DNA of 64,000 nt from an uncultured delta proteobacterium. GTDB lineage: Bacteria; Desulfobacterota; Binatia; Bin18. The notes beneath the pieces are model-generated. The model did not search any database and was not told the origin of the DNA. It saw nothing but the letters and a program-made list of their open reading frames with translations. The stretch's first letter is position 1; every line of letters begins with the position of its first letter. The translations under genes were made by a program, and so were the position numbers. The stretch is taken from positions 192,001 through 256,000 of the forward strand of contig CAVTCR010000050.1 in NCBI GenBank assembly GCA_963733195.1, written 5' to 3'. Shown piece by piece: positions 1,747 through 58,239 of this stretch.

Positions 1747-2095
1747 TCAACTCCGAGGAAGGGTAAGTTGAAGGGTAGTTGTTTGAGCGGTCAACGCACT
1801 TTCTATCCGTTTCGCAGCTTCCCGTAAGTCCCCATCCGACACAATGTGATAGCGGTCAAAGATGTTGCGTGTCTTATGACCACTCATTTGCATTGCTACT
1901 CGTTCAGGGATACCTGCTCTCACCATATTTCTCACTGCCGTTCGTCTGAAGTCGTGCGGAATCCTACCAACAAGCCCCGCTTCCTGGCAAGCCCGGTGCC
2001 AACGCTTGTAGTAGTTCGCAATCTTTCGCCCATAGTCATGAAAAACAAGTGGACACTGAGGATCGCGGGTAGTGTCTTCAATCTGTTGGTATGAG
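1747..2095 (-). pseudogene. Tyrosine recombinase/integrase, C-terminal catalytic fragment
   Basis: RIPHDFRRTAVRNM (HxxR), SGHKT and FDRY motifs; no recognisable N-terminal domains. Confidence 0.85.
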
Positions 2096-2370
2096 AACAA
2101 GCGGCTATGAGGGAGCGAGAGAGGAGAACTGCCGATGGTGGAAGCAGTCGTACGGTGTCCGCACTGTCGAGTGACACGGTAGTGAAGTATGGCCGGGCAA
2201 GTAATGGCAAGGCGCGGTGTCGCTGTCTGCAATAGGTTGACACGCGCCCTCGACATCGAATAGGGTTACCGTCGTTCAACAGACGTCGGCGTCAGCGGGG
2301 CGGAGGCTGAGCCCAGCAAAGACCGTTCGAGCACCGCAGGGGCTGACGCGCGCGCCAAGGAGCCACTGGT

Positions 2371-3792
2371 ATGCGTCATCTGCTTATCCATCTCATCAAT
2401 CCGAAGACCGATTCACTGACCACGCGGCCCCTGTATCTGAATCGGGCCCTGTACTCGCCGCTGGCCGGCTTGCTCGCCGTCGCCGGGGCCCTGCCGCGCG
2501 ATCGCTGCGAGGTGGTGCTGACCGACGAGAACATCGAGGCGATCGATTTCGACCTCAAGGCAGACCTGGTCGGCATCTCCGCCATGACCTGTTACGTGAA
2601 CCGCGGCTACGAGATTGCCGATGCGTTCCGGGAGCGCGGGGTGCCAGTAGTGATGGGGGGGGTGCACCCGAGTTTCATGCCGCAGGAGGCGCTCAAGCAT
2701 TGCGACGCAGTGGTGATCGGCGAGGCGGAGTTAGTGCTTCCCCAACTCCTCGACGACCTCGAACGGGGCGTGATGCGTGGCACGTACAAGGCGGAGAGGC
2801 TGCACCCGATGGAAGGTCTGCCAATGCCACGGTATGACCTGATCAAAAAGAACCGGTATGTGAACCGGACGTTCGTGCAAACCTCCCGCGGCTGTCACCA
2901 GGGCTGTACGTTCTGCGCCGAGCCGCTGATGAACGGGCTCAAGTTTCGCTACCGTCCGGTGGAAGACGTGATCCGCGAAGTCGAGAGCTGCGGCTCGCGC
3001 CTCATCTCGATCAACGATGCCGACTTCTTCGGCACGCCGGAGCGTCCGAAGGAGGTCATGCGCGCCCTCAAGGGGCGGGGCATCCACTGGCAGGCCGGCG
3101 TTACCTCAAAGCTCGCGCAGGACGACCATATGCTCGAGCTTGCGGCCGAGAGCGGCTGCACCTTACTGAGTATCGGCTTTGAGTCGATCACGCGCTCGAC
3201 CCTGACGAGCGTCCACAAGCACGTGAACCGTCCCGACACCTTCGCGGCCTTGGTGGAAAAAGTGCACTCCTACGGGATCATGGTGTTCGGCCTCTTCATG
3301 TTCGGGTTTGACGGCGACGACGGCTCAGTCTTCGAGGAGACCGCCCGGTTCAATATCGACGCGGACTATGATGCCTGCGCCTATTCGGTCCTCACGCCCT
3401 ATCCGGGCACCCTGACCTGGTACGAGATGAAGAAGGCCGATCGCATCGTCTCCTTTGATTGGACAAAATATGACCAGGGAAATGTGGTCTATCGACCGGC
3501 ACAGATGTCGGGTGACGAACTCCGACTCGGGCAGGCCTCTGCCTATGAGACGTTTTACGCGCCGTCATCAATCCTCCGTCGCTTCCCGCTGCGCGGGGGG
3601 CGCAATCGGCTCCAGTGGTCCATCTACAATCTGTTCATGAAAAAAGGTGCAGCGACGGATCGTAAGGAGGCGATTGCCGAGCCGACCATAGCCCCCGCCA
3701 CAGCGCCGATGCCCCCCCTTCTACCGCTCAAGCGGGAGTGGCGCCAAGCGGTGGTGGAAGCGACAGGGGCCGCCGGGCTGGATGGTCAATGA
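2371..3792 (+). CDS. B12-binding domain radical SAM protein
   Basis: N-terminal cobalamin-binding region (VVMGGVHPS, VVIGEAE); SRGCHQGCTFC CxxxCxxC motif; IGFES; TPYPGT. Confidence 0.9.
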   Translation: MRHLLIHLINPKTDSLTTRPLYLNRALYSPLAGLLAVAGALPRDRCEVVLTDENIEAIDFDLKADLVGISAMTCYVNRGYEIADAFRERGVPVVMGGVHPSFMPQEALKHCDAVVIGEAELVLPQLLDDLERGVMRGTYKAERLHPMEGLPMPRYDLIKKNRYVNRTFVQTSRGCHQGCTFCAEPLMNGLKFRYRPVEDVIREVESCGSRLISINDADFFGTPERPKEVMRALKGRGIHWQAGVTSKLAQDDHMLELAAESGCTLLSIGFESITRSTLTSVHKHVNRPDTFAALVEKVHSYGIMVFGLFMFGFDGDDGSVFEETARFNIDADYDACAYSVLTPYPGTLTWYEMKKADRIVSFDWTKYDQGNVVYRPAQMSGDELRLGQASAYETFYAPSSILRRFPLRGGRNRLQWSIYNLFMKKGAATDRKEAIAEPTIAPATAPMPPLLPLKREWRQAVVEATGAAGLDGQ

Positions 3793-4394: not shown

Positions 4395-5562
4395 ATGAGA
4401 GAAGTCGTTATCGTTTCTGCTGCCCGTACAGGAATTGGCAAGGCGTTTCGAGGCAGCCTCAACAAGACTCATGGAGCAACACTCGCGGCTCATGTCATTA
4501 AGCATGCGGTCGAACGCGCAAAGATTGATCCTGTCGAAATTGAGGACGTAGTACTGGGTTGTGGCCTGCCTGAAGGAGCGACTGGTCATAATATCGCCCG
4601 TGTGGCAGCGTTACGAGCCGGATTGCCGAAAACTACAGCTGGAGTAACGGTCAATCGTTACTGCTCGTCTGGGTTACAGGCGATAAGTATGGCAGCGCAG
4701 AGGATTATTGTCGATGGCGCAGATACTATGGTTGCTGGCGGCGTAGAATCGATCAGCCTCGTACAAGGCTCGCTAAACACTAACAATTTCGTCGAAGAGT
4801 GGATGCATGCGAACCTGAAATCCATTTATTACCCGATGCTCTCAACGGCGGAGATCGTTGCGCAACGTTACAAGGTGTCGCGTGAGTCACAAGATGAATA
4901 CTCATTGATCAGCCAACAACGCACGGCCACCGCGCAAGCCGCAGGGAAATTCAGAGATGAGATCGTCCCGTTCACAACCAACATGGAAGTCACTGACAAA
5001 GCAAGTGGGCAAACCTCTCTTCAGGAAGTAACGCTTTCGCGAGATGAGGGGAACCGTCCAGATACGACGCTTGATAAGCTCACTGCCCTCCCCTCTGTCA
5101 CGAACGGCAGCATTACCGCAGGAAATTCCAGCCAGCTTTCCGATGGTGCAGCCGCCTGCGTGCTGATGGAAGCAAGTATCGCCGCGAAGAAAGGGCTGCA
5201 ACCAATGGGCGTGTATCGTGGTCTCATCGCCACCGGTTGTGAACCTGACGAAATGGGGATTGGGCCGGTGTTCGCTGTTCCCAAACTCCTACAGAGGCAT
5301 GGACTGAAGATGGAAGACATCGGCCTGTGGGAACTACGAAGTTTTTGCCGTGCAGACCTAATTGTCGCGATCGGCTAGGGATTCAATGGAACGATTCGTG
5401 GATGGTGGCGCGATTTCCATCGGTCACCCATACGGCATGAGTGGTGCACGCATGGTCGCCCATGCCCTTGCCGAAGGCAAGCGACGTAGCGTGAAGTATG
5501 TGGTCACAACGATGTGTGTTGGCGGCGGAATGGGCGTCGCTGGTTTATTCGAGGTCAACTAA
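4395..5562 (+). CDS. Acetyl-CoA C-acyltransferase (thiolase), frameshifted near 5335-5400
   Basis: VNRYCSSGLQ, TAGNSSQLSDGAA, GGAISIGHPYGMSG, CVGGGMG. Confidence 0.9.
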
Positions 5563-5568
5563 AAAGAA

Positions 5569-5603
5569 AAGGGGAAAGGATAAGGGATAAGGGGTGGGGA
5601 ATA
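5569..5603 (+). repeat. Heptamer tandem array, left arm
   Basis: AAGGGGA AAGGATA AGGGATA AGGGGTG GGGAATA. Confidence 0.75.
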
Positions 5604-5609
5604 GAAAAG

Positions 5610-5996
5610 AGAGGCTAATCACCAGCTCTGCTTCTTGCAATGACCTGATCTGCGCTGCCAGAGAGCGACTAAGTTCCAAAAGTGAAGTTCGCAAGTCGTT
5701 GTAGTGGACTTGATCGATGAAGCTAAGATCTATGCAACCCGCAGTAGACTGCGAACTTCTCCGGCGGAGCCCTTGGCGATAAGGAGGAAACGAATGTACT
5801 CCTTACGCGAAGAGCGCTCAAAACCTTCAGCGATGTTTGTCGGAACAGACACGGCAGCTCGTTGGAGTTGGTCGCGCAAGCCAAAGTCTTTGCTCAGCTT
5901 GCCTGCGGCTGTGAGGAAGTATACTTGCTTGACCAACTCAATTCCCTTTTGCCAAACCCGTAGATCTTCAAAATTTTCGATTCTTTTCTTCTCCAT
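5610..5996 (-). CDS. Four helix bundle protein (23S rRNA IVS protein / bAvd-like family), frameshift near 5730; 3' end approximate
   Basis: FEDLRVWQKG..DFGLRDQLQRAAVSVPTNIAEGFER..FLLIAKGSAGEVRS; continues DLSFIDQVHYNDLRTSLLELSRSLAAQIRSL in a shifted frame. Confidence 0.88.
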
Positions 5997-5997
5997 G

Positions 5998-6025
5998 TCC
6001 CCTTATCCTTTATCCCTTATCCTTT
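5998..6025 (-). repeat. Heptamer tandem array, right arm, inverted relative to the left
   Basis: Plus strand TCCCCTT ATCCTTT ATCCCTT ATCCTTT. Confidence 0.75.
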
Positions 6026-6068
6026 GCTCCGCTATCTTTGTCTCTATCGGCCAATACACGGAGGACCT

Positions 6069-6950
6069 ATGCCCTCGCTAGGAACGATTGACATCGTTTG
6101 CAACTTATTCACCGAAGAAGAAGTCCGTCTTGGTCGCACTGGTGTAGATGAACATTTCCTTAATCAGGTGCGCTTCCCGCAGGAATTACGTCGCGGAGTG
6201 TCAATAGAAGCCTATCTCGAGAAAATGGACCGTGCCGGAATTCAACGCTCACTCCTCATCGCCGTCCGCGCTGGTGATTTACGCGTTAGGCACTCGTTCG
6301 AAATTCCATACGAGCGGGTCGCAGAGATTTGTCAGAAGTATCCCGACCGGTTCTCTGGTCTTGCGGGTGTGGACCCTACACGCGGGATGCAAGGATTGCG
6401 CGAACTAACCCATGCGGTGCATGAGTATGGTTTTGTTGGTGCGCATCTCTATCCGCATTGGTTTGAGATGGCTCCTGACCATGCCCGCTACTATCCGATC
6501 TATGCCAAGTGTTGTGAGCTTGAGATTCCCATCATGATGCAGGTGGGGCATTGCTTGCGATATCAAAAAGATCGCGTCTTACCGAGTGTCGGTCGCCCAA
6601 TCACTCTCGACCGTGTTGCCATCGATTTCCCTGAACTCACGCTCATTGGCATTCATATTGGTTATCCCTGGACCGAGGAGATGATCTCGGTCGCATGGAA
6701 ACACCCCAATGTCTACATCGGCACCGACGCCTATGCCCCACGCCACTGGCAGTCACCGCTTGTGCAGTTCATTAACACTTGGGGACAAGACAAAGTATTA
6801 TTCGGCACCGATTGGCCGGTGATTGACCCAGAACGAGCAATGGCAGAGGTAGACGGGCTTGAGATCAGACCAGAACCAAGGCGAAAATTATTGCGTGACA
6901 CTGCACTGCGGATTTTTCGCTTGCCAGAGTCCGCAGCAAGGACTAAGTAA
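6069..6950 (+). CDS. Amidohydrolase family protein (Amidohydro_2)
   Basis: YPIYAKCCEL, DFPELTLIGIHIGYPW, KVLFGTDWP; GGAGG RBS. Confidence 0.88.
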   Translation: MPSLGTIDIVCNLFTEEEVRLGRTGVDEHFLNQVRFPQELRRGVSIEAYLEKMDRAGIQRSLLIAVRAGDLRVRHSFEIPYERVAEICQKYPDRFSGLAGVDPTRGMQGLRELTHAVHEYGFVGAHLYPHWFEMAPDHARYYPIYAKCCELEIPIMMQVGHCLRYQKDRVLPSVGRPITLDRVAIDFPELTLIGIHIGYPWTEEMISVAWKHPNVYIGTDAYAPRHWQSPLVQFINTWGQDKVLFGTDWPVIDPERAMAEVDGLEIRPEPRRKLLRDTALRIFRLPESAARTK

Positions 6951-8495: not shown

Positions 8496-9413
8496 TATCG
8501 AATGAGGATAGGATTGGAAGCATAAGTGCCGAAGCACTCTCCCGTTCCAGCAGAGCTTGGCGCAACTTCTCCGCACTGCAGTGTAACTGTGATCCCTTCA
8601 CCAGTCCCAGTCCTACAAATAGCAGCAAAGCCTTCTATCAGCTTGGAACCCGGGTTAACATCATCCACCACAGGAACGATCGTCGCGCTAGGGCACTGCT
8701 GGGGAAGAAGCCCCTCTAGACGCGCCGCTAAATTTGCTAGATCTGGTGGGATTGGCTGCAGAGTAATGGGCGTCCCCACTTGCACTGGTAGCGGAAGAGA
8801 GGCTACTGGCGCTAGCGCGGCAGTTACTAACTCTAAGAGCGGGCGGGGATTCATCACAGCCATCAGGAAAATCCCAGAAAGCCCGCGATATGGCAAGCTG
8901 TGCTAGCTTCTCTCCTGTTGTCTTTATTCCCGGACACGGTAGATGAGCAACTGCACTGAGAGTGATGTTCTCTTGCCCGGTCTCTCCTGCTCCGAAGACG
9001 TTTCTAATACCCGCGAAGAACACCTGTGTCGGCACGTCAGTTATTACGCGTACGCCATTGCACGGGGCACTCCCTCCCCACAGGTTCCAGCTTGACGCTT
9101 CTTGCAGTTCTCCACTGGTCTGATTGTAGTTCATCGGGGCAACGTCGTTCGCTGGACTGACACTACTGTTGACCACATTTTTTTCACTGAATGTGTTTGC
9201 GAGCTCCTCGGCTCTGGTCTTCCGATCGCCAGAATCCTCAATTAGTGCCGCTGCAGCCGCTAAGGCTGCAGCGTCTACTCGCGCCTGGCCTTGAGCTCGC
9301 ACAAACACCAGCCAGCCAGTATCAAGCGCAAGGCCAAGGAATAGAAGAAACAGCAGCAATCCCATGGCCACAAAAACCAGTACCACACCACGATCGTTGC
9401 GTACGGTGTTCAT
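8495..9413 (-). CDS. tadG: TadG-like Flp pilus assembly protein, frameshift near 8840
   Basis: NDRGVVLVFVAMG..LGLALDTG..ARVDAAALAAA; C-terminal part in ORF 8495..8896. Confidence 0.75.
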
Positions 9414-9433
9414 AGTACTTCTCAACTCGGATA

Positions 9434-9908
9434 TCAGGATGGTCTTTGCCATTCCCAACGCATCTCGGCTGTGCGAGAGATTGTGATCGGTCTCAAACCC
9501 AATCAGTTGCAGGAGAAACCAGCCATACTGCCCTTCGATGGTCACCCGAACCGCATCTTCGTTTATATTATCTGAAGGAACAAATTCACTTTCAAGCGTA
9601 AAGCCGTTAAATAAGCCAACATCAGGGATTTTGGCGGATGCAACTTTGAGAATAGAGGGACCACTGCCACAAGGGACGGTACAGGTTCCCTCTTCCCCTG
9701 CCGGAAATCCTCCCCCCCCCACAGAGCGAACAACTGCCCCGGCGCGTGCCCCTTCGCGAGCAGCATTCACAATCACTTGTCCGACAAAGAATGCCAAACC
9801 AAAATCGACAATCCCACCAATGATGACGAGAAGAAAAGGAAGGATGAAAGCAAATTCGATGAGCGCTTGCCCGCGTTTATTGGAGTGAAAGGAAAGGATA
9901 CGGCCCAT
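9434..9908 (-). CDS. tadE: TadE-like pseudopilin, frameshift near 9490
   Basis: KRGQALIEFAFILP..IVDFG..NAAREGARAG; shifted frame ends ITISRTAEMRWEWQRPS*. Confidence 0.85.
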
Positions 9909-10048
9909 AGCCCCTCCGTCTTTCAGCGCTTTGACTTACTAACATACCTGTTTTTGAGATCACTATTCAATTATCTACGACCGCTGTGTACGGTACAGGT
10001 CCAAATGGCACAAAAAGATAGACCACAAATACCCCGGATTTGCAACCA

Positions 10049-10064
10049 AGCAAGATCCTTACCA
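10049..10064 (-). promoter_or_regulatory. sigma54 -24/-12 promoter for tadE-tadG
   Basis: TGGTAA-GGATC-TTGCT (GG-N10-GC). Confidence 0.55.
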
Positions 10065-10167
10065 AGGCAGCCACCTGGTCCCATTTTGCACTGCAAAATG
10101 GGAGAAGTTCATAGGGGTTATACCGCAAGTTGCTAAAAAAATAAGCTCCTAAAGAATGAAGTTCTTA

Positions 10168-10232
10168 TGTCACTTTTGTCAAAACTTCTGTCATTTCTGA
10201 CAAATGACAACGGCATGACACAGAGTCTGACA
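10168..10232. promoter_or_regulatory. Array of TGTCA/TGACA half-sites, putative enhancer (UAS)
   Basis: TGTCActttTGTCAaaacttcTGTCAtttcTGACAaaTGACAacggcaTGACAcagagtcTGACA. Confidence 0.6.
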
Positions 10233-10264
10233 GTGGAATTGTTGAGAAAATCACCGCTTTCCGC

Positions 10265-10280
10265 TGGCACATAGCATGCT
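10265..10280 (+). promoter_or_regulatory. sigma54 promoter for the flp operon
   Basis: TGGCAC-ATAGC-ATGCT. Confidence 0.7.
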
Positions 10281-10353
10281 CCCTGTTTCTTTGCATATAC
10301 GACGCTACACTATATGGGGGTGGCACAAATTAATCTGAGAAAGGAGCTCTTTT

Positions 10354-10572
10354 ATGAAAGATTTATTGAAACGTCTATTGATTGAAGAAGAAGGACAAGG
10401 CATCACCGAGTATGCTCTTATCCTCGGCTTGATCGTGTTTGGGGTCTGGGTCATTATTAATTCTTCTAACATAGGCGAGGCTATTACTACCCTTTTCGCG
10501 AATGTCACAGGTGAAATTGGTAAGTGTAGCGTCCCTGGAACCTGCGGCGAAGGCTCTGGCGGCACTCCATAA
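10354..10572 (+). CDS. flp: Flp family type IVb pilin
   Basis: EEEGQGITEYALILGLI Flp motif; AAGGAG RBS. Confidence 0.92.
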   Translation: MKDLLKRLLIEEEGQGITEYALILGLIVFGVWVIINSSNIGEAITTLFANVTGEIGKCSVPGTCGEGSGGTP

Positions 10573-10695
10573 TGCATGGCCCTCAGCAGTCTAGAGCAGC
10601 GAAGAGTCAAGCCTGAGCAAAAGCTGGCAGTTTGTTTCTTCACACTTCTTCTACCAAATCCCTCCTCCTGTCCGGTTATTGACCTATACAACTTG

Positions 10696-10729
10696 TAAGA
10701 GAGGCACCTGAATTCAGGTGCCTCTCTTA
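10696..10729. terminator. Perfect 34-bp palindrome after flp, terminator or attenuator
   Basis: TAAGAGAGGCACCTGAATTCAGGTGCCTCTCTTA. Confidence 0.6.
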
Positions 10730-10805
10730 GTTCTATCCCGCAGAGCCTCAGGCGCGATTGCCGAGATGTGGCTACCTTTCTCATCCAAAGGACAATAAGA
10801 AAGAC

Positions 10806-11348
10806 ATGGTCATCCTCAAAGATGTCCTTTTCCTCCTCTTCTCTGGACTCGCAGTGATATTTGATCTCAGAGAGCAACGCATCCCTAACTGGCTCAATTT
10901 CCCGGCGACAGGAGCCGGATTACTGCTGAATGGCTGGAATGGGTTTCCCTCCTTACTCGATAGTCTATACGGTTGCGGGCTCGGCATTGGGATTTTCGTC
11001 CTGCCGTTCATCCTCGGTTGGTTAGGCGCAGGGGATGTAAAACTCATGGGTGCACTCGGAGCTATTCTCGGGTCTGCGATCATTCCTCGCGTTGCCTTCT
11101 ACTCCGTTCTTGCTGGAGGCTTGCTTGCCCTATTTTCCCTTGTGGGAAAAAAGTTTAAGCTTAGAAGCTTAACAAGTGTTTGGTTGGACTTCAAACTGCT
11201 GCTAATGACTAAAGGAACAGTATTACCTGAAGCAGTTGGACAACGGAGCCGGAAAGGCTCACATACGGTTCCTTACGGAGTCGCAATCGTGTTAGGAGCG
11301 CTAGTTGCAGTGTATTATGATCCCGATGGACACTGGGCAGGATTTTAG
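10806..11348 (+). CDS. cpaA: Prepilin peptidase, A24 family
   Basis: FDLREQRIPNWL, LGAGDVKLM, VPYGVAI. Confidence 0.92.
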   Translation: MVILKDVLFLLFSGLAVIFDLREQRIPNWLNFPATGAGLLLNGWNGFPSLLDSLYGCGLGIGIFVLPFILGWLGAGDVKLMGALGAILGSAIIPRVAFYSVLAGGLLALFSLVGKKFKLRSLTSVWLDFKLLLMTKGTVLPEAVGQRSRKGSHTVPYGVAIVLGALVAVYYDPDGHWAGF

Positions 11349-11360
11349 CGCAAGAGGTGA

Positions 11361-12191
11361 ATGTCTATGCAAAATCGCTTACGACTCGCCATGCTGATTG
11401 CGATCTCGTTTGGGCTGCTCGCAGCCTACGGGATTTTTAGTTTCCTTCGGCAGCAACGTTTGGACTCCGAGCGATTCAGAAGCTCACTACAAGATATTGT
11501 CGTCGCAACCAAAGAGATTCCCTCTGGAGCTGCCATCACCACGGATATGGTGAAAACTACTTCTTACCTCAAGGCCTCTGTCCCGCCAGGCGCGTTTTCC
11601 TCGCTACAACAAGTGACCGGAAAAATTGCTAAGACCACGATCGCACCGGGTGAACCGATGCTTCCTTCCCGTTTGGCCGATAAAGCTGGATTGACTGTGT
11701 TGTTAAGTCCGGGGTACCGCGCCATTGCCGTACGCGTCAACGAGATCATTGGGGTCAGCGGATTTATTGTTCCCAACGATCGGGTCGATGTCATAGCCCT
11801 GGTCGCTTCTCCTTCCGCTGCCAACGAACCCGCCAAACAGATCTCGAAGATCGTGTTACAAAATAAACGCGTCTTATCAGTCGCACAAACAGTCAATGAA
11901 CCAAAAGATGGAAAACCACAGGTTGCAAGTTCGATTACATTGGAATTGACTCCTGAGGAAGCAGAAAAATTGTCGCTGGCCTCTATTGAAGGGCAGATTG
12001 TGTTAGCGTTGCGAGCGGCACAGGACGAGAACATCGTCGACACGCCGGGGAGTACTACTCGTGATCTTCTCAACCTTGCCGCACCGCCACCACCAGTGCC
12101 AATCGCAGCACCGCCACCACCTGCGGCTCCTCCGGCGCGATACCGGGTAGAGCTCTATGCAGGCAGCAAACGATCGGAGTTTGAGTTCTAG
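11361..12191 (+). CDS. cpaB: Flp pilus assembly protein CpaB
   Basis: SAF domain, GYRAIAVRVNEIIGVSGFIVPNDRVDVI. Confidence 0.92.
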   Translation: MSMQNRLRLAMLIAISFGLLAAYGIFSFLRQQRLDSERFRSSLQDIVVATKEIPSGAAITTDMVKTTSYLKASVPPGAFSSLQQVTGKIAKTTIAPGEPMLPSRLADKAGLTVLLSPGYRAIAVRVNEIIGVSGFIVPNDRVDVIALVASPSAANEPAKQISKIVLQNKRVLSVAQTVNEPKDGKPQVASSITLELTPEEAEKLSLASIEGQIVLALRAAQDENIVDTPGSTTRDLLNLAAPPPPVPIAAPPPPAAPPARYRVELYAGSKRSEFEF

Positions 12192-12209
12192 AGAAAGGGG
12201 CATAGGCAC

Positions 12210-13934
12210 ATGGGGAGTTGTGGGACACGAAGAGGGAGGGGCGTGCCTTGGGGGATAGCCCTCAGTATGCTGTTAGGACTGTGGGGAAGAGGTCAGATCG
12301 CTTACGGTCAGGAAACACATCCATCCATCTCAGTCACAGTGAATCAGTCGCGGGTTTTGCAATTGCGCACACGTTCACGCACGGTATCAGTTGCACAACC
12401 AGACATCGCCGACGTCGTCGTGTTATCCCCCACCGACCTGCTGATTAATGGCAAAGCCGTGGGGACAACCTCACTTGTCATTTGGAATGAGCAAGGAGGA
12501 ATTTCGCACTTCAGCCTTACTGTCATTCCTGATGTGCTCGGCTTACAACGACAACTGCGTGCTTTGTTCCCTGATGATCAGGTCGAAATATCAACTTCAG
12601 GCTCCACCCTCGTACTCAGAGGAGAAGTGGCCAACGAAGTCATTTATGACAAGGTCTTAGAGATCACCCGTACGTACCTGCCTACCAGGCAACAAACTGC
12701 AGAGACGGCGACACCTGGCACGTCACAATCTGTGAATGTTAATACACGGACGCAACCCCGCCTCCCGCAGACTGGCACTGCCTTTGCCGGCGGTGGACAA
12801 TTAGCCTTTCTTCCAGAATCAGCCCTGACCGACACCAACCGATGGGGTGATAAACGGCAACTACCGGGGATTGTCGACCTGTTAGTCATTCGCGAGGCTC
12901 GCCAGGTACAGCTCGACGTTATTGTCGCAGAAATCTCTCTCACGCGGCTACGGGAGCTCGGCGTCGACATCGGCGTAGTCGGAAAACATACATCTTTCTT
13001 AAGCCGAGCAGGAACACAGGGCGGGTTCTCTGCTGGTTCGCTGTTTGAAGATACCAGCCAGTTTCCGCCCACCACTCTTTTTGGCGGTGGTACTTCTGCT
13101 GTGCTTTCCCATGTGACAGGAAATTTAGCACTGACGACAGTCTATCGCCTTTTTCAAGATAAAACCGTTACTGAAGTGCTGGCCCAACCCCGCTTGGTGA
13201 TGAAAAACGGACAGTCTGGAGGATTTCTGGCTGGTGGTGAGTTCCCCGTTCCCTTTGCAACCGACGATGACATCACTATCGACTTCAAACCATTCGGGGT
13301 ACGGCTGGACTTTGTGCCAACTATCACGTGGTCTGATACAATTGATCTACGTGTGTTTCCAGAAGTGAGTGACATTGATCCGTCGGTATCAGTAGCGTTT
13401 GGCGGGGTCGTGATTCCAGGGCTCCGGGTGCGCAGAAGCGTGAATCGTGTCGAGATGCGTGAGGGAGAGACACTGATTATCAGTGGCCTTCTCGATCGCA
13501 GGACTCTCAGAGACCTGAGCAAGATTCCTTTCCTTGGCGACCTCCCGATCATAGGCGCGCTCTTTCGTACGACACGCTTTCGCAATCAGGAAACAGAGTT
13601 GATTTTCGTCGTGACGCCTAAGGTTGTGAAGGCGCTGCGTCCAGGTGTACGGCCGCCGCTCCCATCACTTCGCAAGTATAACGATCCGGATATGCGTCAG
13701 GTCCCTGTGCCCACACCTCCCTCTGCACCAATACCACCGCAGGCTTCTCCTGCTCCGTATCAGGCTCCAGCACCGGAGTCTTCCTTACAGAAATCGACGC
13801 TTGGGGAGTCAACTCCAGAGAGCAACCTGCCCACACCAACATCTTCCCCTAAGCCAACAATCCCCGTACCATCCTTACCATTACCAGCCTCTTCTAGTCG
13901 CCCCGCTCCTGCCGGAGGACCAACACTACCGTAG
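12210..13934 (+). CDS. cpaC: Pilus secretin CpaC/RcpA with Pro-rich tail
   Basis: FLAGGEFPVP, FKPFGVRLDF, KIPFLGDLPIIGALFR..ETELIFVVTP. Confidence 0.92.
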   Translation: MGSCGTRRGRGVPWGIALSMLLGLWGRGQIAYGQETHPSISVTVNQSRVLQLRTRSRTVSVAQPDIADVVVLSPTDLLINGKAVGTTSLVIWNEQGGISHFSLTVIPDVLGLQRQLRALFPDDQVEISTSGSTLVLRGEVANEVIYDKVLEITRTYLPTRQQTAETATPGTSQSVNVNTRTQPRLPQTGTAFAGGGQLAFLPESALTDTNRWGDKRQLPGIVDLLVIREARQVQLDVIVAEISLTRLRELGVDIGVVGKHTSFLSRAGTQGGFSAGSLFEDTSQFPPTTLFGGGTSAVLSHVTGNLALTTVYRLFQDKTVTEVLAQPRLVMKNGQSGGFLAGGEFPVPFATDDDITIDFKPFGVRLDFVPTITWSDTIDLRVFPEVSDIDPSVSVAFGGVVIPGLRVRRSVNRVEMREGETLIISGLLDRRTLRDLSKIPFLGDLPIIGALFRTTRFRNQETELIFVVTPKVVKALRPGVRPPLPSLRKYNDPDMRQVPVPTPPSAPIPPQASPAPYQAPAPESSLQKSTLGESTPESNLPTPTSSPKPTIPVPSLPLPASSSRPAPAGGPTLP

Positions 13935-37556: not shown

Positions 37557-37961
37557 ATGATTAGGAAGAAGATCTTAATTGTTGAGGACAACGAAGATAA
37601 TCGTAATATTCTTATCTATAGGCTCCGGAAAGTCGGTGACTTTGACATCAAAGAAGCACAGAACGGACAAGAAGCTCTCGCCCTTATAACGCAAGACCCT
37701 CCCGACTTGCTGTTCCTCGATCTAAAGCTACCAATTCTTGACGGCTGGGAAACTGCACGCCGTATTCGCGCGATGCAAGGCTCAATCAAGAACCTCCCTA
37801 TCATTGCATTGACTGCCCAAGCGATGGTTGGCGATGAGGAAAAAGCGATTGCCGCTGGATGTGACGATTATATCGCCAAACCAATCATTGACTCAGGCAT
37901 CGTCAGAGAGAAGATTCTTCACTTCTTACCGCAGCACGCTGCCCAAGCAAACAACCTTTGA
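37557..37961 (+). CDS. Single-domain response regulator (DivK-like)
   Basis: ILIVEDNEDN, LFLDLKLPILDG, IIALTA, YIAKP. Confidence 0.9.
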   Translation: MIRKKILIVEDNEDNRNILIYRLRKVGDFDIKEAQNGQEALALITQDPPDLLFLDLKLPILDGWETARRIRAMQGSIKNLPIIALTAQAMVGDEEKAIAAGCDDYIAKPIIDSGIVREKILHFLPQHAAQANNL

Positions 37962-38173: not shown

Positions 38174-39193
38174 CTACGATTTCTCTTGCTTCACTAGCTT
38201 TCTCAGACTCACCGTAAACGCCTCGCAGTACCCGTTTTCTCGGGGATAGACCGTTTGCTGCAATTCGCTATGAAGCAACGGTAGGTTATAAAATGGGACA
38301 GAGGGATAGAGGTGGTGCTCCAGGTGATAATTCACCTGTTTTGGTGCGAAGAAAAAACTCAGTACAGGAGGAATGAGGTATGTTCGAGTCTGTTGATAGA
38401 GATTCTGAGGGTCCGGTACATTACCATGCTCTATTGCACCACGGATACGGAAGAATACTTGCGTGAATGTGCAATACGGAACGAGCCAATAAAGTCCGAA
38501 CCACTCGACCGCCTTGCTTCCCCAGAACCATAGTCCACCGAAAAGCACGACACTCCAGAAAAGCGCAAACACGGACATGTCGGCAATGTGACGATATTGT
38601 TCATCGCGCGCCTCTCCCAGAAAGCGACGATTGAAGTCCTTCATTCCGAATGGAAGATCGATAAAGTACTTCAACGTCGACAGAACATTCAGACCACAAA
38701 GATCACGAAGAAGTAAGCGGAGAAACTTTTTGCTCCCTACCGGATAGCGAGCGAAAATCGCACGGTCTGGATCATCTACCGTATGCGTATGCTGATGGTG
38801 GTAGAGGTGGATAAATCGCCATTTTGCCAACGAAATAAACACCGGAAAGCCAGCTAAGAAACGCGCGAGCCAGTCATTGAACCACAACCGACGCGATAGC
38901 CGCTTATGTATGCCCTCGTGGGTAATGACCATCAAGGCATGCTGTCGTGAGGCAATCACCCCAACAGAAAGAAGGTAGACAAGAACCCCTACAGTGCCCG
39001 ATGACAATGGAACTAGCACCACGCTGCTATAGACAGCGAGCGTAATGACACCCCAAATCTCGAGGAGATGATAAACCGAAAGCCCCGAGTTTATCCGAGA
39101 CAAGACTTTTATCGTCTGCTGTAGTTCTTCTGGTGAATCTAGAGCAACCGCTGCTGCGTTCACTTTCTGCACAATTTCAGATGTACACCACAT
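38174..39193 (-). CDS. Fatty acid desaturase family protein
   Basis: His boxes HEGIH, HLYHH, YHLEHH. Confidence 0.9.
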   Translation of the reverse strand: MWCTSEIVQKVNAAAVALDSPEELQQTIKVLSRINSGLSVYHLLEIWGVITLAVYSSVVLVPLSSGTVGVLVYLLSVGVIASRQHALMVITHEGIHKRLSRRLWFNDWLARFLAGFPVFISLAKWRFIHLYHHQHTHTVDDPDRAIFARYPVGSKKFLRLLLRDLCGLNVLSTLKYFIDLPFGMKDFNRRFLGEARDEQYRHIADMSVFALFWSVVLFGGLWFWGSKAVEWFGLYWLVPYCTFTQVFFRIRGAIEHGNVPDPQNLYQQTRTYLIPPVLSFFFAPKQVNYHLEHHLYPSVPFYNLPLLHSELQQTVYPRENGYCEAFTVSLRKLVKQEKS

Positions 39194-56551: not shown

Positions 56552-58239
56552 TTATTGCGTACCGTACTTCACGCTCAGCTTTTTCATGCGGCTGCGCAGC
56601 GTCGAAGCGGGCAGGCCCAGAATCTCCGCCGCGCCCCCTTTGCCAGCGATGAGCCCACGCGTATGGCGCAAGACTTCTTCGATATAGGCGCGTTCCATTT
56701 CTTCCAGCGTGCGTGAGGGTGGTGATGCCGCGTGCGCGGTAGGAGTGGCCGTTGCTGCTTCCGCTCGGCTCAGCGGCAGATCGACGAACAACACCTCACC
56801 CTCGGCCAGCAGCACGGCTCGTTCAATCAGGTGCTCCAGCTCGCGCACGTTGCCAGGCCAAGCGTACTGCTGTAGGCGCGTCAGGGAAGCAGGGTCGATC
56901 GAGGAAATCGGTTTTTTGAAACGGGCGCGAAATTTCTGGGCAAAATAGGTGGTCAGTAGCGCGATATCGCCGGGTCGCTCACGCAACGGCGGCGCCTGAA
57001 TCGGAAAGACGTTGAGGCGATAGAAGAGGTCGGAGCGGAATTTTCCTTCAGCAACAAGTTTGTCAAGCGGCTGGTTTGTCGCCGCGAGTACTCGGACATC
57101 CACCGAGATGGAGTGTGCTCCTCCCACACGTTCGAAGGCGCCGTGCTGCAAAACGCGCAAAAATTTCGCTTGCGTTTCCAGCGACAGTTCTCCCACTTCG
57201 TCGAGAAAGAGGGTGCCGCCGTCGGCCAGTTGGATACGTCCGAGTTTGCGTTGGTGCGCGCCGGTGAAGGCGCCTTTCTCGTGCCCGAATAACTCGCTTT
57301 CCACCAGTCCCGCGGGCAAGGCGGCGCAATTAATCGTAATGAATGGACGGTGGCTGCGAGCGCTGCGCGTGTGGATGGCGTGAGCGATCAATTCCTTGCC
57401 TGTTCCAGTCTCCCCACAGATCAGTACGGTAGCGTCCGCTGAGGCAACTGTCTCAATTGCCTTCACGACGTGTTTGAATGCAGGGCTGGTGCCGATCATC
57501 TCCGCGAAATAGTCTTCTTCCCTCATCGCCTTTTGCAGGGAGTACATCTGCGATTCGAGCGTTTGCACTTTCTCCCGTTGCTGCGCGAGTTCCCGCGAGC
57601 GCCGTTCCAGTTCGGTGAGCACCGTCGTAGTTCGGCATCGAGATTCTCCGGTTGGTGATCCTCCCTCAGGGCACGCATGTCTTCATGCTGTCAGTGGCTG
57701 CTCTGCCAACGACGAGGCAGCGCGCATCTCCTTTCCCCACGCATTCCTTTTCCACGCAATAGACAGGGCTGCCGAAGATCGCGGTCGCATGCCCGCTCGC
57801 ATATCCTGTCAGGGTCCAGCATACCGGTACAGTGCTGGGAGCCGATGTGTTTTAGGTGTTGTTCTGCTTCGTAGGAGTTGATCCACTCCGACTCTGTGGC
57901 AAACACGCCACGGCCCGTATCGATCTGGAAGTGCAGCGGGCGCACGCGCACGATTCCTTCCAACGTGTGCAGGCGTGGGCCGGCGGCCCACCAGTCTTCT
58001 ACGCTGTTCCAGGCGAACAATTCTTTCGAGGTCAGCGCGTCGCGATACCCACAGGCGTAGCCAAAGCGAGTCAGGAGACGTCGCGTGCGTTCCAGACCCA
58101 GAGTCTTAGTGAGTTCCTTGCGCAGCAGACCCATCGCATCTGCATCAAAGAGCAGCATACGTCGATGCCGGAAGTGAATCGTCCCCGCCGCCTCGTCCAC
58201 AGTGAGTAACTCTGGCAACTTCAGTTCGCTGAGGTTCAT
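56552..58239 (-). CDS. XylR/DmpR-type sigma54 activator (XylR_N + V4R + AAA + HTH), frameshifts near 57830 and 57625
   Basis: [47 protein letters not shown]; [14 protein letters not shown]. Confidence 0.88.

What the first reader, a model, noticed from the sequence alone, without database searches (positions are those of the whole stretch)
5569..6025. Four-helix-bundle (Avd/IVP-like) gene caged by inverted heptamer arrays, antisense within an apparent operon: candidate minimal mobile or RNA-processed cassette
Seen: the left array (AAGGATA AGGGATA AGGGG) and the right array (TCCCCTT ATCCTTT ATCCCTT ATCCTTT) are reverse complements and tightly bracket the gene. The gene lies between co-directional thiolase and amidohydrolase genes, and the right array supplies its RBS (AAGGGGA-C-ATG). 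No transposase or RT is adjacent. Established: this family was first found in excised 23S rRNA intervening sequences and resembles the RNA-binding DGR accessory protein Avd. Inference: the arms pair in the transcript and loop out the gene, like an mRNA intervening sequence, and the unit may spread with a recombinase or RT supplied in trans. This is the best candidate here for an undescribed system.
Basis: partly seen in the sequence, partly recalled or inferred. Interest (0 to 1): 0.78.

Follow-up and report, generated by a model that had tools for sequence, protein, structure and literature searches.

The report
Four-helix-bundle gene caged by heptamer stems

Summary
Arms 5565-5594 and 5999-6028 (30 nt, 83% complementary; 19-nt core 95%) bracket a minus-strand PF05635/TIGR02436 gene lying between a thiolase and an amidohydrolase gene.

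It is not a local oddity:
- All 8 PF05635 loci of this Candidatus Binatia genome have such arms, each with its own repeat unit.
- In two subfamilies fetched from many phyla, 49 of 79 and 58 of 78 loci have strong inverted arms. Flanks displaced by 500 nt gave 0 of 69 in both sets.
- Arms are tandem heptamers. The purine/G-rich arm always comes first, and the whole cassette is about 495 nt.

The cassette is absent from orthologous sites in relatives (three loci checked), inverted at one site, and its arm sequences turn over while staying complementary. The genome also holds at least 49 ORF-less hairpins of the same kind.

The closest known thing is the ORF-bearing 23S rRNA intervening sequence (IVS), which RNase III cuts out. 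My best reading is an IVS-type hairpin cassette living in operons. RNA processing is inferred, not shown.

No RT or transposase lies next to the gene. The antisense orientation seen here is rare (2 of 63 loci). This copy carries a 1-nt frame break, in an assembly that has indel problems close by. I found no published description of this layout in six literature searches.

The parts
5565..5594 (.). Left arm: purine/G-rich tandem heptamer array on the + strand. It is the C-rich 3' arm in the sense of the gene. The array extends roughly over 5563-5600.
   Evidence: pairs with 5999-6028 in the MFE folds of both strands.
5999..6028 (.). Right arm: pyrimidine-rich array on the + strand. Its complement is the purine-rich 5' arm of the gene and carries Shine-Dalgarno-like AAGGA / AAGGGG just before the ATG at 5996.
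5730..5996 (-). PF05635 / TIGR02436 four-helix-bundle gene: first 88 codons, ending at an in-frame TAG (5730-5732).
   Evidence: R46-x3-S50-x3-N54-x2-E57 is present (read).
5617..5729 (-). C-terminal remainder of the same gene in a shifted frame. It aligns with the C-terminus of the intact 124-aa ortholog of G010/L104. A 1-nt gap at 5731/5732 causes the break. The end coordinate is approximate.
4395..5562 (+). Upstream host gene: thiolase. Its stop lies 0-3 nt before the cassette. Its frame is broken around 5335-5395 in this assembly.
   Evidence: An independent metagenome contig has 8 extra bases there. The orthologs are intact.
6029..6068 (+). Spacer between the right arm and the amidohydrolase start. 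It holds the GGAGG Shine-Dalgarno of that gene.
6069..6950 (+). Downstream host gene: Amidohydro_2 family.

Best explanation
The locus is one copy of a widespread cassette. [quoted passage not shown] The purine/G-rich arm comes first and the pyrimidine/C-rich arm last. The whole is about 460-520 nt, wedged between the stop codon of one host gene and the ribosome-binding site of the next.

Shown here:
- The layout is conserved across phyla while the arm sequence is specific to each locus.
- Arms and gene are present or absent together at orthologous sites.
- The cassette can be inverted.
- Arms turn over fast but stay complementary.
- ORF-less hairpins of the same build are abundant in the same genome.

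Inferred:
- The cassette works like the ORF-bearing intervening sequences of 23S rRNA. In any transcript that crosses it, on either strand, the arms pair into a stem of 30 bp or more.
- RNase III cuts that stem. The cassette RNA is removed from, or insulated within, the host transcript, so an insertion in an operon, a restriction-modification locus, a cas locus or an rRNA gene is tolerated.
- In the usual sense orientation, cleavage would also free the gene's own ribosome-binding site.
- Gain, loss and inversion are DNA events that use the arms.

The copy in this window is in the rare antisense orientation, has no promoter-like site, and carries a frame break. It may be silent or decaying, or simply mis-assembled.
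For: Generality:
- 8 of 8 PF05635 loci of the genome are bracketed by inverted arrays with 8 different units.
- Set 1 (80 loci from many phyla, 79 testable): inverted-arm score 15 or more in 49 of 79, against 6 of 79 for direct orientation and 0 of 69 for flanks displaced by 500 nt.
- Set 2 (a subfamily 22% identical to set 1; 78 of 80 testable): 58 of 78, against 16 of 78 direct and 0 of 69 displaced.
- 2 of 2 viral-contig homologs also have arms.

Arm properties:
- The cognate 3' arm is the best partner of its 5' arm in 41 of 87 loci.
- 57 of 79 5' arms are periodic, with period 7 or 14 in 39, 8 in 9 and 9 in 9. Control windows: 1 of 231.
- In set 2, all 55 periodic arms have period 7 or 14.
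- The 5' arm has G>C in 72 of 79 and 55 of 58 loci.

Geometry:
- Cassette length median 495 nt (IQR 460-520); this one is 464 nt.
- Upstream stop to arm: median 3 nt. Arm to next start: median 16 nt.

Folding:
- In MFE folds of this cassette the arms pair on both strands (z -4.4 and -6.1, 0 of 100 shuffles as good).
- 15 or more terminal pairs occur in 56 of 87 and 42 of 78 cassettes, against 16 of 87 and 21 of 78 displaced windows.

Presence, absence and inversion:
- This site is empty in G002 (stop + 19 nt + ATG) and filled in G010 in the same orientation.
- The C52 site is filled in G000 and G002, and empty in G010, G013 and G016. The C62 site is empty in G010.
- At the C62 site the gene is inverted in G001 relative to the same flank, beside a 230-nt expanded array.

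Other:
- Orthologous cassettes carry different but still complementary arms.
- Arm similarity tracks protein identity (Mantel test, 0 of 999 permutations).
- Set 2 keeps one unit type at 80-86% protein identity across phyla.
- Known parallel: the Coxiella 23S IVS is 428 nt with a 28-bp terminal stem cut by RNase III in mid-stem (passages of PMC4990558).
Against: - No RNA evidence. The only runs holding this DNA are metagenome contigs. None shows ends or joints at the arms, and the one RNA run covers only parts of the two host genes.
- Mismatches inside the arms show no excess of G-U-compatible types for either strand (126 sense-wobble, 105 antisense-wobble, 280 other; p = 0.19). Selection on an RNA rather than a DNA structure is therefore not shown.
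- 30 of 79 and 20 of 78 loci fall below the arm threshold. A few have no detectable arms at all, for example L012, L013, L037 and L054.
- The arms are not specific to this gene. At least 49 ORF-less hairpins and one caged cas4 gene exist in the same genome.
- One relative has 24 array matches and no PF05635 match (G016).
- The displaced-window control in the fold test is not clean (16 of 87 and 21 of 78).
Confidence: 0.55

Rival explanations
1. The arms matter as DNA, not RNA. The cassette is an invertible or excisable DNA module whose inverted arrays are substrates for recombination or replication slippage. Flipping would switch the gene between being co-transcribed with the host operon (on) and antisense (off), and hairpin or cruciform formation would drive precise loss.
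For: - Inversion of the orthologous gene between G000 and G001 at one site.
- Precise absence at three sites.
- Array expansion to about 230 nt.
- No strand-specific wobble signal.
- Purine-first order is the same on both strands, so a flipped gene again gets a purine-rich arm in front of it (reasoned).
- A strong orientation bias (58 of 63 co-directional with the upstream gene) shows that orientation matters.
Against: - Only one inversion was seen, and it is between species, not within a population.
- No recombinase is linked to the loci. The nearest one here is a fragment 3.3 kb away.
- This reading does not explain why the same layout is tolerated inside rRNA genes, where RNase III excision is documented.
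- It is compatible with the main explanation rather than exclusive of it.
Confidence: 0.2
2. The heptamer-array hairpins are a general intergenic device of these genomes, such as a terminator, an insulator or an mRNA-stability element, comparable to cyanobacterial heptamer repeats. PF05635 genes merely tend to land in, or survive in, their loops. On this reading the arms are host sequence, not part of a unit.
For: - At least 49 ORF-less hairpins, median 103 nt, are depleted from long open frames (20 of 49 against 245 of 300 random positions).
- 121 array sites of one unit type occur in the genome.
- A hairpin elsewhere (C47:11140) shares an exact 24-nt stretch with this cassette's left arm.
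- cas4 is caged in the same way.
- Arrays occur in a genome without a PF05635 match (G016).
Against: - Empty orthologous sites have neither arms nor gene, only an 11-19-nt spacer. This holds at 4 of the 5 empty sites whose sequence I read (this site in G002; the C52 site in G010, G013, G016). The fifth, the C62 site in G010, has no arrays but is not a short spacer: its flanks lie 212 nt apart.
- The arm unit type travels with the protein subfamily across phyla.
- 8 of 8 PF05635 loci are caged. By contrast only 17 long-interior inverted array pairs were detected in the whole 6.9-Mb genome, most of them adjacent separate hairpins.
Confidence: 0.15
3. The arrays are binding sites for the encoded protein. 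The homopentameric four-helix-bundle protein would bind the roughly five tandem heptamers of its own arms, as RNA or DNA, for autoregulation or for propagating the element, possibly with a reverse transcriptase supplied in trans as Avd works with the RT of diversity-generating retroelements (DGRs).
For: - Median arm length is 35 nt, or five heptamers.
- The solved relative 2GSC has five chains in its entry.
- Unit type correlates with protein similarity and is conserved within one subfamily across phyla.
- Arrays of one unit type occur in 16 of 23 related genomes with a PF05635 match, but in only 2 of 18 without one.
- About ten RT matches exist in the genome.
Against: - No binding data exist.
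- The correlation can be explained by common descent alone.
- Subfamily-level co-occurrence is weak. Arrays occur in 10 of 14 genomes with the matching subfamily and in 8 of 27 without it.
- No RT lies near any PF05635 locus.
Confidence: 0.08
4. The apparent cage is a chance match of two low-complexity purine/pyrimidine tracts.
For: The arms are low in complexity and only 83% complementary over 30 nt.
Against: It is the best of only 2 such repeats in 64 kb, rank 1 of 87 against foreign arms, and the same pattern recurs in 8 of 8 paralogous loci and in most of 157 foreign loci, with 0 of 69 in the controls.
Confidence: 0.01

Closest known systems
ORF-bearing intervening sequences (IVS) of 23S rRNA genes (Leptospira, Coxiella, Brucella, Xanthomonas-type S23p ORF)
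   Same: - Same protein family (PF05635).
- Same size class: 428 nt in Coxiella, 464 nt here, median 495 nt.
- Terminal inverted repeats form a stem of about 28-30 bp around the ORF.
- Sporadic presence among relatives.
- ORF-less short versions exist alongside.
(Passages of PMC4990558; passages of bioRxiv 10.1101/2024.02.27.582315.)
   Different: - This one lies between protein-coding genes, not in an rRNA helix. No Rfam family matches any of the 8 loci.
- The arms are tandem heptamer arrays with a fixed purine-first order. Whether rRNA-borne stems share this was not tested.
- RNase III excision is shown for the rRNA elements and only inferred here.
Avd, the accessory protein of diversity-generating retroelements (DGRs)
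   Same: Four-helix-bundle fold family. PF05635 is the commonest Pfam next to DGR reverse transcriptases (passage of PMC10053308).
   Different: - No RT, template repeat or variable repeat lies next to this gene or to any of the 8 loci. The RT matches are on other contigs or far away.
- That Avd genes lack flanking arrays is recalled and was not tested.
Heptamer tandem repeats of cyanobacteria (STRR) and the TAACTGA repeats of Beggiatoaceae, Cyanobacteria and Bacteroidetes
   Same: Intergenic tandem 7-mers of unknown function with a patchy, cross-phylum distribution (passages of PMC4679880). Cyanobacterial cassettes in my set have such arms (L014, L017, L212, L222).
   Different: Those reports describe direct repeats upstream of genes. 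The passages I read mention one inverted case and no link to PF05635. STRR details are recalled from memory, not read.
MITEs and REP/BIME-type intergenic hairpins
   Same: - Many short non-coding palindromic copies beside a few protein-coding ones.
- Insertion/absence polymorphism.
- Nested copies (C16:8890-9040).
   Different: - Arm sequence is not conserved between copies. Only the build (tandem 7-mers, complementarity, purine-first order) is.
- No transposase.
- No target-site duplication was evident at the three sites examined.
Integron gene cassettes (attC)
   Same: A promoter-less small ORF with a structure-defined, sequence-variable imperfect palindrome, inserted in arrays of genes.
   Different: Both halves of attC sit together at the 3' end of the cassette, not on either side of the ORF. 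No integrase or attI is present. This comparison rests on recall only.

Membership tests
PF05635 / TIGR02436 four-helix-bundle protein (23S rRNA IVS protein) | Profile match above the curated cut-off | tested here: met
   PF05635: 102.4 bits, cut-off 33.8. TIGR02436: 91.1 bits, cut-off 24.
PF05635 / TIGR02436 four-helix-bundle protein (23S rRNA IVS protein) | Complete protein of about 110-125 aa covering all four helices | tested here: not met
   The frame ends after 88 codons and the profile is matched only over positions 1-79 of 106. The rest lies in another frame, with a 1-nt gap relative to the intact 124-aa ortholog. This may be an assembly error.
PF05635 / TIGR02436 four-helix-bundle protein (23S rRNA IVS protein) | Conserved motif reported as GxxRxxxSxxxNxxE (PMC3936711, passage) | tested here: inconclusive
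   R46-x3-S50-x3-N54-x2-E57 is present. The leading G is not at the stated spacing; the nearest is G39 (read).
PF05635 / TIGR02436 four-helix-bundle protein (23S rRNA IVS protein) | Sequence relative with a solved four-helix-bundle structure | tested here: met
   The intact paralog P0001 (59% identical to this gene) matches 2GSC (E 7e-15) and 2RLD. No fold was predicted here.
rRNA intervening sequence (IVS) | Inserted in a helix of a 16S or 23S rRNA gene | tested here: not met
   It lies between a thiolase and an amidohydrolase gene. No Rfam match at E up to 0.1 in any of the 8 loci.
rRNA intervening sequence (IVS) | Terminal inverted repeats forming a long stem around the element | tested here: met
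   30-nt arms, paired in the MFE folds of both strands.
rRNA intervening sequence (IVS) | Excised from the transcript by RNase III without religation | not testable with these tools
   Only metagenome contigs hold this DNA.
rRNA intervening sequence (IVS) | Sporadic presence among close relatives | tested here: met
   Empty site in same-genus G002, filled in G010. Two further loci are polymorphic.
Diversity-generating retroelement (Avd component) | Adjacent reverse transcriptase with a template/variable repeat pair | tested here: not met
   No RT domain in the 16 ORFs scanned between 1 and 13934. The 12 PF00078 matches of the genome lie on C35, C83, C39, C14, C59, C66, C64, C1 and C6, not beside PF05635 loci. 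A template/variable repeat pair was not searched for.
MITE / terminal-inverted-repeat (TIR) transposon | Terminal inverted repeats conserved in sequence between copies, plus a target-site duplication | tested here: not met
   The 8 copies have 8 different arm units. No duplication was evident at the filled versus empty sites.

The most novel reading that the evidence does not exclude
PF05635 four-helix-bundle proteins are the trans-acting partners of a pan-bacterial class of 'heptamer-array hairpin' elements. The caged genes would be the autonomous form. The abundant ORF-less hairpins, the short ORF-less rRNA intervening sequences and at least part of the cyanobacterial heptamer repeats would be their non-autonomous derivatives. 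Each pentamer would recognise the roughly five tandem heptamers of its own arm type and promote their processing or spread. This would give a function to a large orphan family and an origin to rRNA fragmentation elements.
Probability: 0.2. Interest if true: 0.9.

Novelty: new variant of a known kind. Interest (0 to 1): 0.77.

Why it matters
The origin and purpose of rRNA intervening sequences, and the function of their conserved ORF, have been open since the early 1990s. PF05635 is a large family that annotators keep meeting inside cas, restriction-modification, capsule and metabolic operons without explanation.

If nearly every solo member sits in a covarying stem of tandem heptamers, the rRNA cases become a special instance of a general cassette that can live inside any transcript. 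The question then becomes testable:
- RNase III mapping in cultured carriers.
- Binding of the protein to its own arms.
- Inversion and excision assays.

It also flags a class of repeat (purine-first heptamer hairpins) that breaks assemblies and can be mistaken for noise.

Tried and rejected
RNA evidence:
- The look-up of sequencing runs gave only soil and sediment metagenome contigs holding 0.27 or less of the words. Read laying on X1, X2, X4 and X18 left 5618-5704 and the frame break uncovered. The RNA run covered only parts of the two host genes. Nothing can be said about processing.
- One X2 joint (5590 to 6003, depth 2, side 21, 16 other letters between) is below the tool's own reliability advice. 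It most likely comes from an ORF-less hairpin with the same units, such as C47:11140. I do not count it as an excision product.

Wobble test for RNA-level selection: no signal (126 against 105, p = 0.19).

Autonomous versus non-autonomous link:
- 24 of 49 ORF-less hairpins share 6-mers with the arms of the C63 cassette, 4 with this cassette, 3 with C53:98001, 1 with C52, and 17 with none (no chance control).
- Across 41 related genomes, one array type is found in 16 of 23 genomes with PF05635 and in 2 of 18 without. Kinship confounds this comparison.
- At subfamily level the figures are only 10 of 14 against 8 of 27.
- The C63 gene itself has no close ortholog in relatives (best 52%), though 84-86% identical copies exist in other phyla.

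Other searches:
- Promoter scan: 0 sigma-70-like sites in 5300-6300.
- Rfam: no match. PADLOC: no match.

Long-interior array pairs in the genome (17): most are halves of two separate neighbouring hairpins around ordinary genes, not cages.

Literature: six searches found no paper describing heptamer arms around non-rRNA PF05635 genes. Subscription journals and supplements were not seen.

I rejected chance, a DGR, and a TIR transposon (see the membership tests).
Full report
**1. What is at the coordinates**

The + strand reads: thiolase stop (5560-5562), then a purine-rich run of degenerate heptamers, then about 400 nt, then the complementary pyrimidine-rich run, then 40 nt, then the amidohydrolase start.
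- The repeat finder gives arms 5565-5594 / 5999-6028 (30 nt, 83% complementary) with a 19-nt core at 95%.
- In the whole window only two inverted repeats of 22 nt or more lie within 800 nt of each other, and this is the better one.
- The enclosed minus-strand ORF 5730-5996 is a PF05635 / TIGR02436 protein.
- An intact paralog, 59% identical to it, matches the solved four-helix-bundle proteins 2GSC and 2RLD.
- The two flanking genes are co-directional and the gene is antisense to them.

**2. State of this copy**

The frame stops after 88 codons, and the conserved C-terminal third continues in another frame.
- Aligned with the orthologous cassette of a related genome (G010 = L104), the window lacks one base at 5731/5732. 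That ortholog encodes an intact 124-aa protein in the same antisense orientation.
- The thiolase next door is also broken. A metagenome contig laid on it carries 8 extra bases within 5335-5395, and the orthologs are intact.
- Five other PF05635 loci of the genome also show split or partial matches. One break sits in a run of A (read).

I cannot tell assembly indels from real decay. No contig covers the break.

**3. The layout is general**

The genome is a Candidatus Binatia MAG, judged from the titles of the closest loci. It has 8 PF05635 loci. Every one is bracketed by inverted arrays of short tandem repeats, each with a different unit.

Set 1, 80 loci fetched with a three-sequence alignment from Acidobacteriota, Cyanobacteria, Chloroflexota, Bacteroidota, Nitrospirota and others:
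- 79 were testable; L011 lacks the upstream flank.
- The upstream 170 nt against the reverse complement of the downstream 230 nt scored 15 or more in 49 of 79.
- The direct orientation gave 6 of 79, and flanks displaced 500 nt outward gave 0 of 69.
- With a looser mismatch penalty, 79 of 87 loci (foreign plus own) scored 13 or more. No control was run at that threshold.

Set 2, a second subfamily only 22% identical to the first, queried with the copy in the restriction-modification locus on C63:
- 58 of 78 testable loci (80 fetched) reached the threshold, against 16 of 78 direct and 0 of 69 displaced.

Two of two homologs on viral contigs also have heptamer arms. The cognate 3' arm is the best partner of its 5' arm among all 87 loci in 41 cases. 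For the target it is rank 1.

**4. Anatomy**

- Periodicity: 57 of 79 5' arms are periodic, with period 7 in 24, 14 in 15, 8 in 9 and 9 in 9. Control windows gave 1 of 231. In set 2, all 55 periodic arms among the 58 strong ones have period 7 or 14.
- Arm length: median 35 nt, about five heptamers.
- Arm order: the 5' arm has G>C in 72 of 79 and 55 of 58 loci.
- This order is not tied to the direction of the gene. A purine-first hairpin is purine-first when read on either strand. All 49 ORF-less hairpins of the genome obey the same rule.
- One consequence, by reasoning: whichever way the interior lies, the ORF has a purine-rich, Shine-Dalgarno-like arm in front of it.
- Cassette length: median 495 nt (IQR 460-520); 464 nt here.
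- Fit between genes: median 3 nt from the upstream stop to the arm, and 16 nt from the arm to the next start. Stop-to-stop frames of 100 codons or more served as proxies for genes.
- ORF end: in 25 of 71 foreign loci the ORF runs into the 3' arm.

**5. Orientation**

63 loci had both neighbours resolved. With the gene taken as +, the neighbours were:

| Left, right | Loci |
|---|---|
| +,+ | 41 |
| +,- | 17 |
| -,+ | 3 |
| -,- | 2 |

Another 16 loci were incomplete. The antisense-in-operon arrangement of the target is therefore rare. No sigma-70-like promoter was found for the gene.

**6. Gain, loss, inversion and arm turnover**

| Site | Filled | Empty |
|---|---|---|
| Target | G000; G010 (another genus, same orientation; protein 79.5% identical) | G002 (same genus): thiolase stop, 19 nt, amidohydrolase ATG, no arms, no gene |
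| C52 | G000, G002 | G010, G013, G016: 11-12-nt spacer |
| C62 | G000; G001 (inverted) | G010 |

- At the C62 site in G001 (same genus), the gene is inverted relative to the same upstream flank. It follows a G-rich array expanded to about 230 nt.
- Orthologous cassettes carry different arm units that are still complementary within each genome.
- Arm 6-mer sharing rises with protein identity. The mean is 0.32 at 70% identity or more, and 0.03-0.04 at 40-60% identity. The Mantel test gave 0 of 999 permutations. Shared descent can explain this.
- In set 2, one unit type is kept at 80-86% protein identity in Desulfobacteraceae, Acidobacteriota, Nitrospira, Methylococcaceae and Chitinophaga MAGs. 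The closest homolog among 40 relatives of this genome is only 52% identical. This points to horizontal transfer of gene and arms together.

**7. ORF-less hairpins and other cargo**

- A conservative scan of the genome found 66 inverted array pairs. 49 of them have only 4-96 nt between the arrays.
- These 49 have a median length of 103 nt and are depleted from long open frames: 20 of 49 against 245 of 300 random positions.
- A degenerate three-unit pattern of one unit type has 121 sites in the genome.
- One hairpin (C47:11140) shares an exact 24-nt stretch with the target's left arm, and one hairpin is nested in another.
- Of the 17 long-interior pairs, most are halves of neighbouring hairpins around ordinary genes.
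- Real cages among them are the C63 gene, a truncated PF05635 remnant at C50:106734-107183 (E 2e-5), and a cas4 gene between cas1 and another cas gene (C28:61835-62552; my reading of the translations, no profile run).
- The arms are therefore typical of this gene family but not exclusive to it.

**8. Folding**

The target's arms pair as the closing stem in the MFE structure of both strands: z -4.4 on the gene strand and -6.1 on the operon strand, with 0 of 100 shuffles as stable. Over fixed windows, 15 or more terminal pairs occur in 56 of 87 and 42 of 78 cassettes, against 16 of 87 and 21 of 78 displaced windows.

**9. Mechanism**

The nearest documented system is the ORF-bearing IVS of 23S rRNA. 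In the passages I read of PMC4990558, the Coxiella element is 428 nt, encodes an S23p protein of this family, and is closed by a 28-bp stem of terminal inverted repeats. RNase III cuts it in mid-stem. The passages also say that IVSs occur sporadically, are thought to be horizontally transferred, and were once proposed to be mobile elements whose ORF serves mobility.

The cassettes described here match that in protein, size, stem and patchiness. I therefore commit to an IVS-type mode of action. The arms pair in whatever transcript crosses the cassette, and RNase III removes or insulates it, which makes insertion in operons tolerable.

This step is inferred. The one test available to me, an excess of G-U-compatible mismatches on one strand, was negative. 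No usable RNA data exist for this organism. DNA-level roles of the arms in inversion, precise loss and array slippage are shown as outcomes but not as mechanisms. They are compatible with the RNA role.

**10. What is known in print**

In the passages I read:
- PF05635 genes are noted inside cas loci, for example between cmr3 and cmr2, and often near cas4 or cas6 (PMC3936711).
- PF05635 is noted as the Avd-like Pfam next to DGR reverse transcriptases (PMC10053308).
- It is noted in rRNA insertions of Candidate Phyla Radiation (CPR) bacteria, alongside shorter ORF-less insertions (bioRxiv 10.1101/2024.02.27.582315).
- Heptamer direct repeats with a cross-phylum distribution are described without any link to this family (PMC4679880).

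None of these passages, and none of six full-text searches, describes complementary heptamer arrays around non-rRNA members. Older subscription papers were not available: Ralph and McClelland 1993, the STRR papers, and the Avd structure paper. I cite them from recall only. Supplements were not read.

**11. Verdict**

The RT or recombinase in trans remains speculation. The locus itself is an atypical, possibly defective copy. What it reveals is a rule for the whole family that appears to be unreported.

Noticed in passing
window 5335-5395 (thiolase) and 5731/5732: Clustered small deletions relative to an independent metagenome contig (8 bases within 60 nt) and to orthologs. Several other PF05635 copies of the genome also have frame breaks, one in a run of A. 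The assembly probably has local indel errors.
   Followed up: partly
window 1747-2256 (-): A 169-aa ORF matching only the C-terminal part of the phage-integrase (tyrosine recombinase) family (E 6.9e-9), 3.3 kb from the cassette. A Phd/YefM-like antitoxin ORF at 3802-4125 matches weakly (26.1 bits, below the 29.8-bit cut-off), and a B12-binding radical SAM gene at 2371-3792 lies between.
   Followed up: no
G000 genome-wide, e.g. C3:11304-11413, C78:3408-3504, C47:11140-11242, C16:8916-9003: At least 49 ORF-less hairpins made of two inverted heptamer arrays (median 103 nt, loop about 23 nt, always purine-first). 121 array sites of the unit type ARTKRAR. One hairpin (C16) is nested inside another.
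   Followed up: partly
G000:C28:61835-62552 (L282:1336-2052): A cas4 gene, frame-broken, lies between cas1 and another cas gene and is caged by complementary heptamer arrays (score 23.5) in the same way as the four-helix-bundle genes. This rests on my reading of the translations; no profile search was run.
   Followed up: partly
G000:C50:106734-107183 (same contig, outside the window): A truncated remnant of a PF05635 gene (40-58 residues matched, E 2e-5) lies between complementary arrays. It is a ninth, degraded cassette that the family search missed.
   Followed up: partly
G001:C429:1-700; G006:C6:10987-11091; G022:C115:1227-1317: Very long arrays: about 230 nt of 8-nt units beside an inverted cassette, and 13-15 perfect heptamers in a row. 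Several contigs end in such arrays, so they probably break assemblies.
   Followed up: no
L008:337-450 (G000:C52, about 1 kb upstream of a cassette): A different repeat of about 110 nt, with dozens of copies at 85-100% identity in G010, G013, G016 and G001. G016 alone has more than 40 near-identical 32-nt matches.
   Followed up: no
G002:C27, about 290 nt between the cassette and the downstream gene (seen): An extra insertion downstream of the orthologous C52-site cassette, absent from G000. It looks like another small repeat element.
   Followed up: no
G000:C63:34227-38826: The restriction-modification locus holding the C63 cassette has further heptamer arrays between its genes (37804-37877, 38791-38826). 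The gene is 84-86% identical to copies in other phyla but at most 52% identical to any copy in 40 related genomes.
   Followed up: partly
window 56809-56833 / 57125-57149: The only other inverted repeat of 22 nt or more in the window (25 nt, 76%, 291 nt apart). It is not made of heptamers.
   Followed up: no
window 8688-13934: Tad/Flp pilus genes (TadE/TadG-like, prepilin peptidase, RcpC/CpaB, secretin).
   Followed up: no
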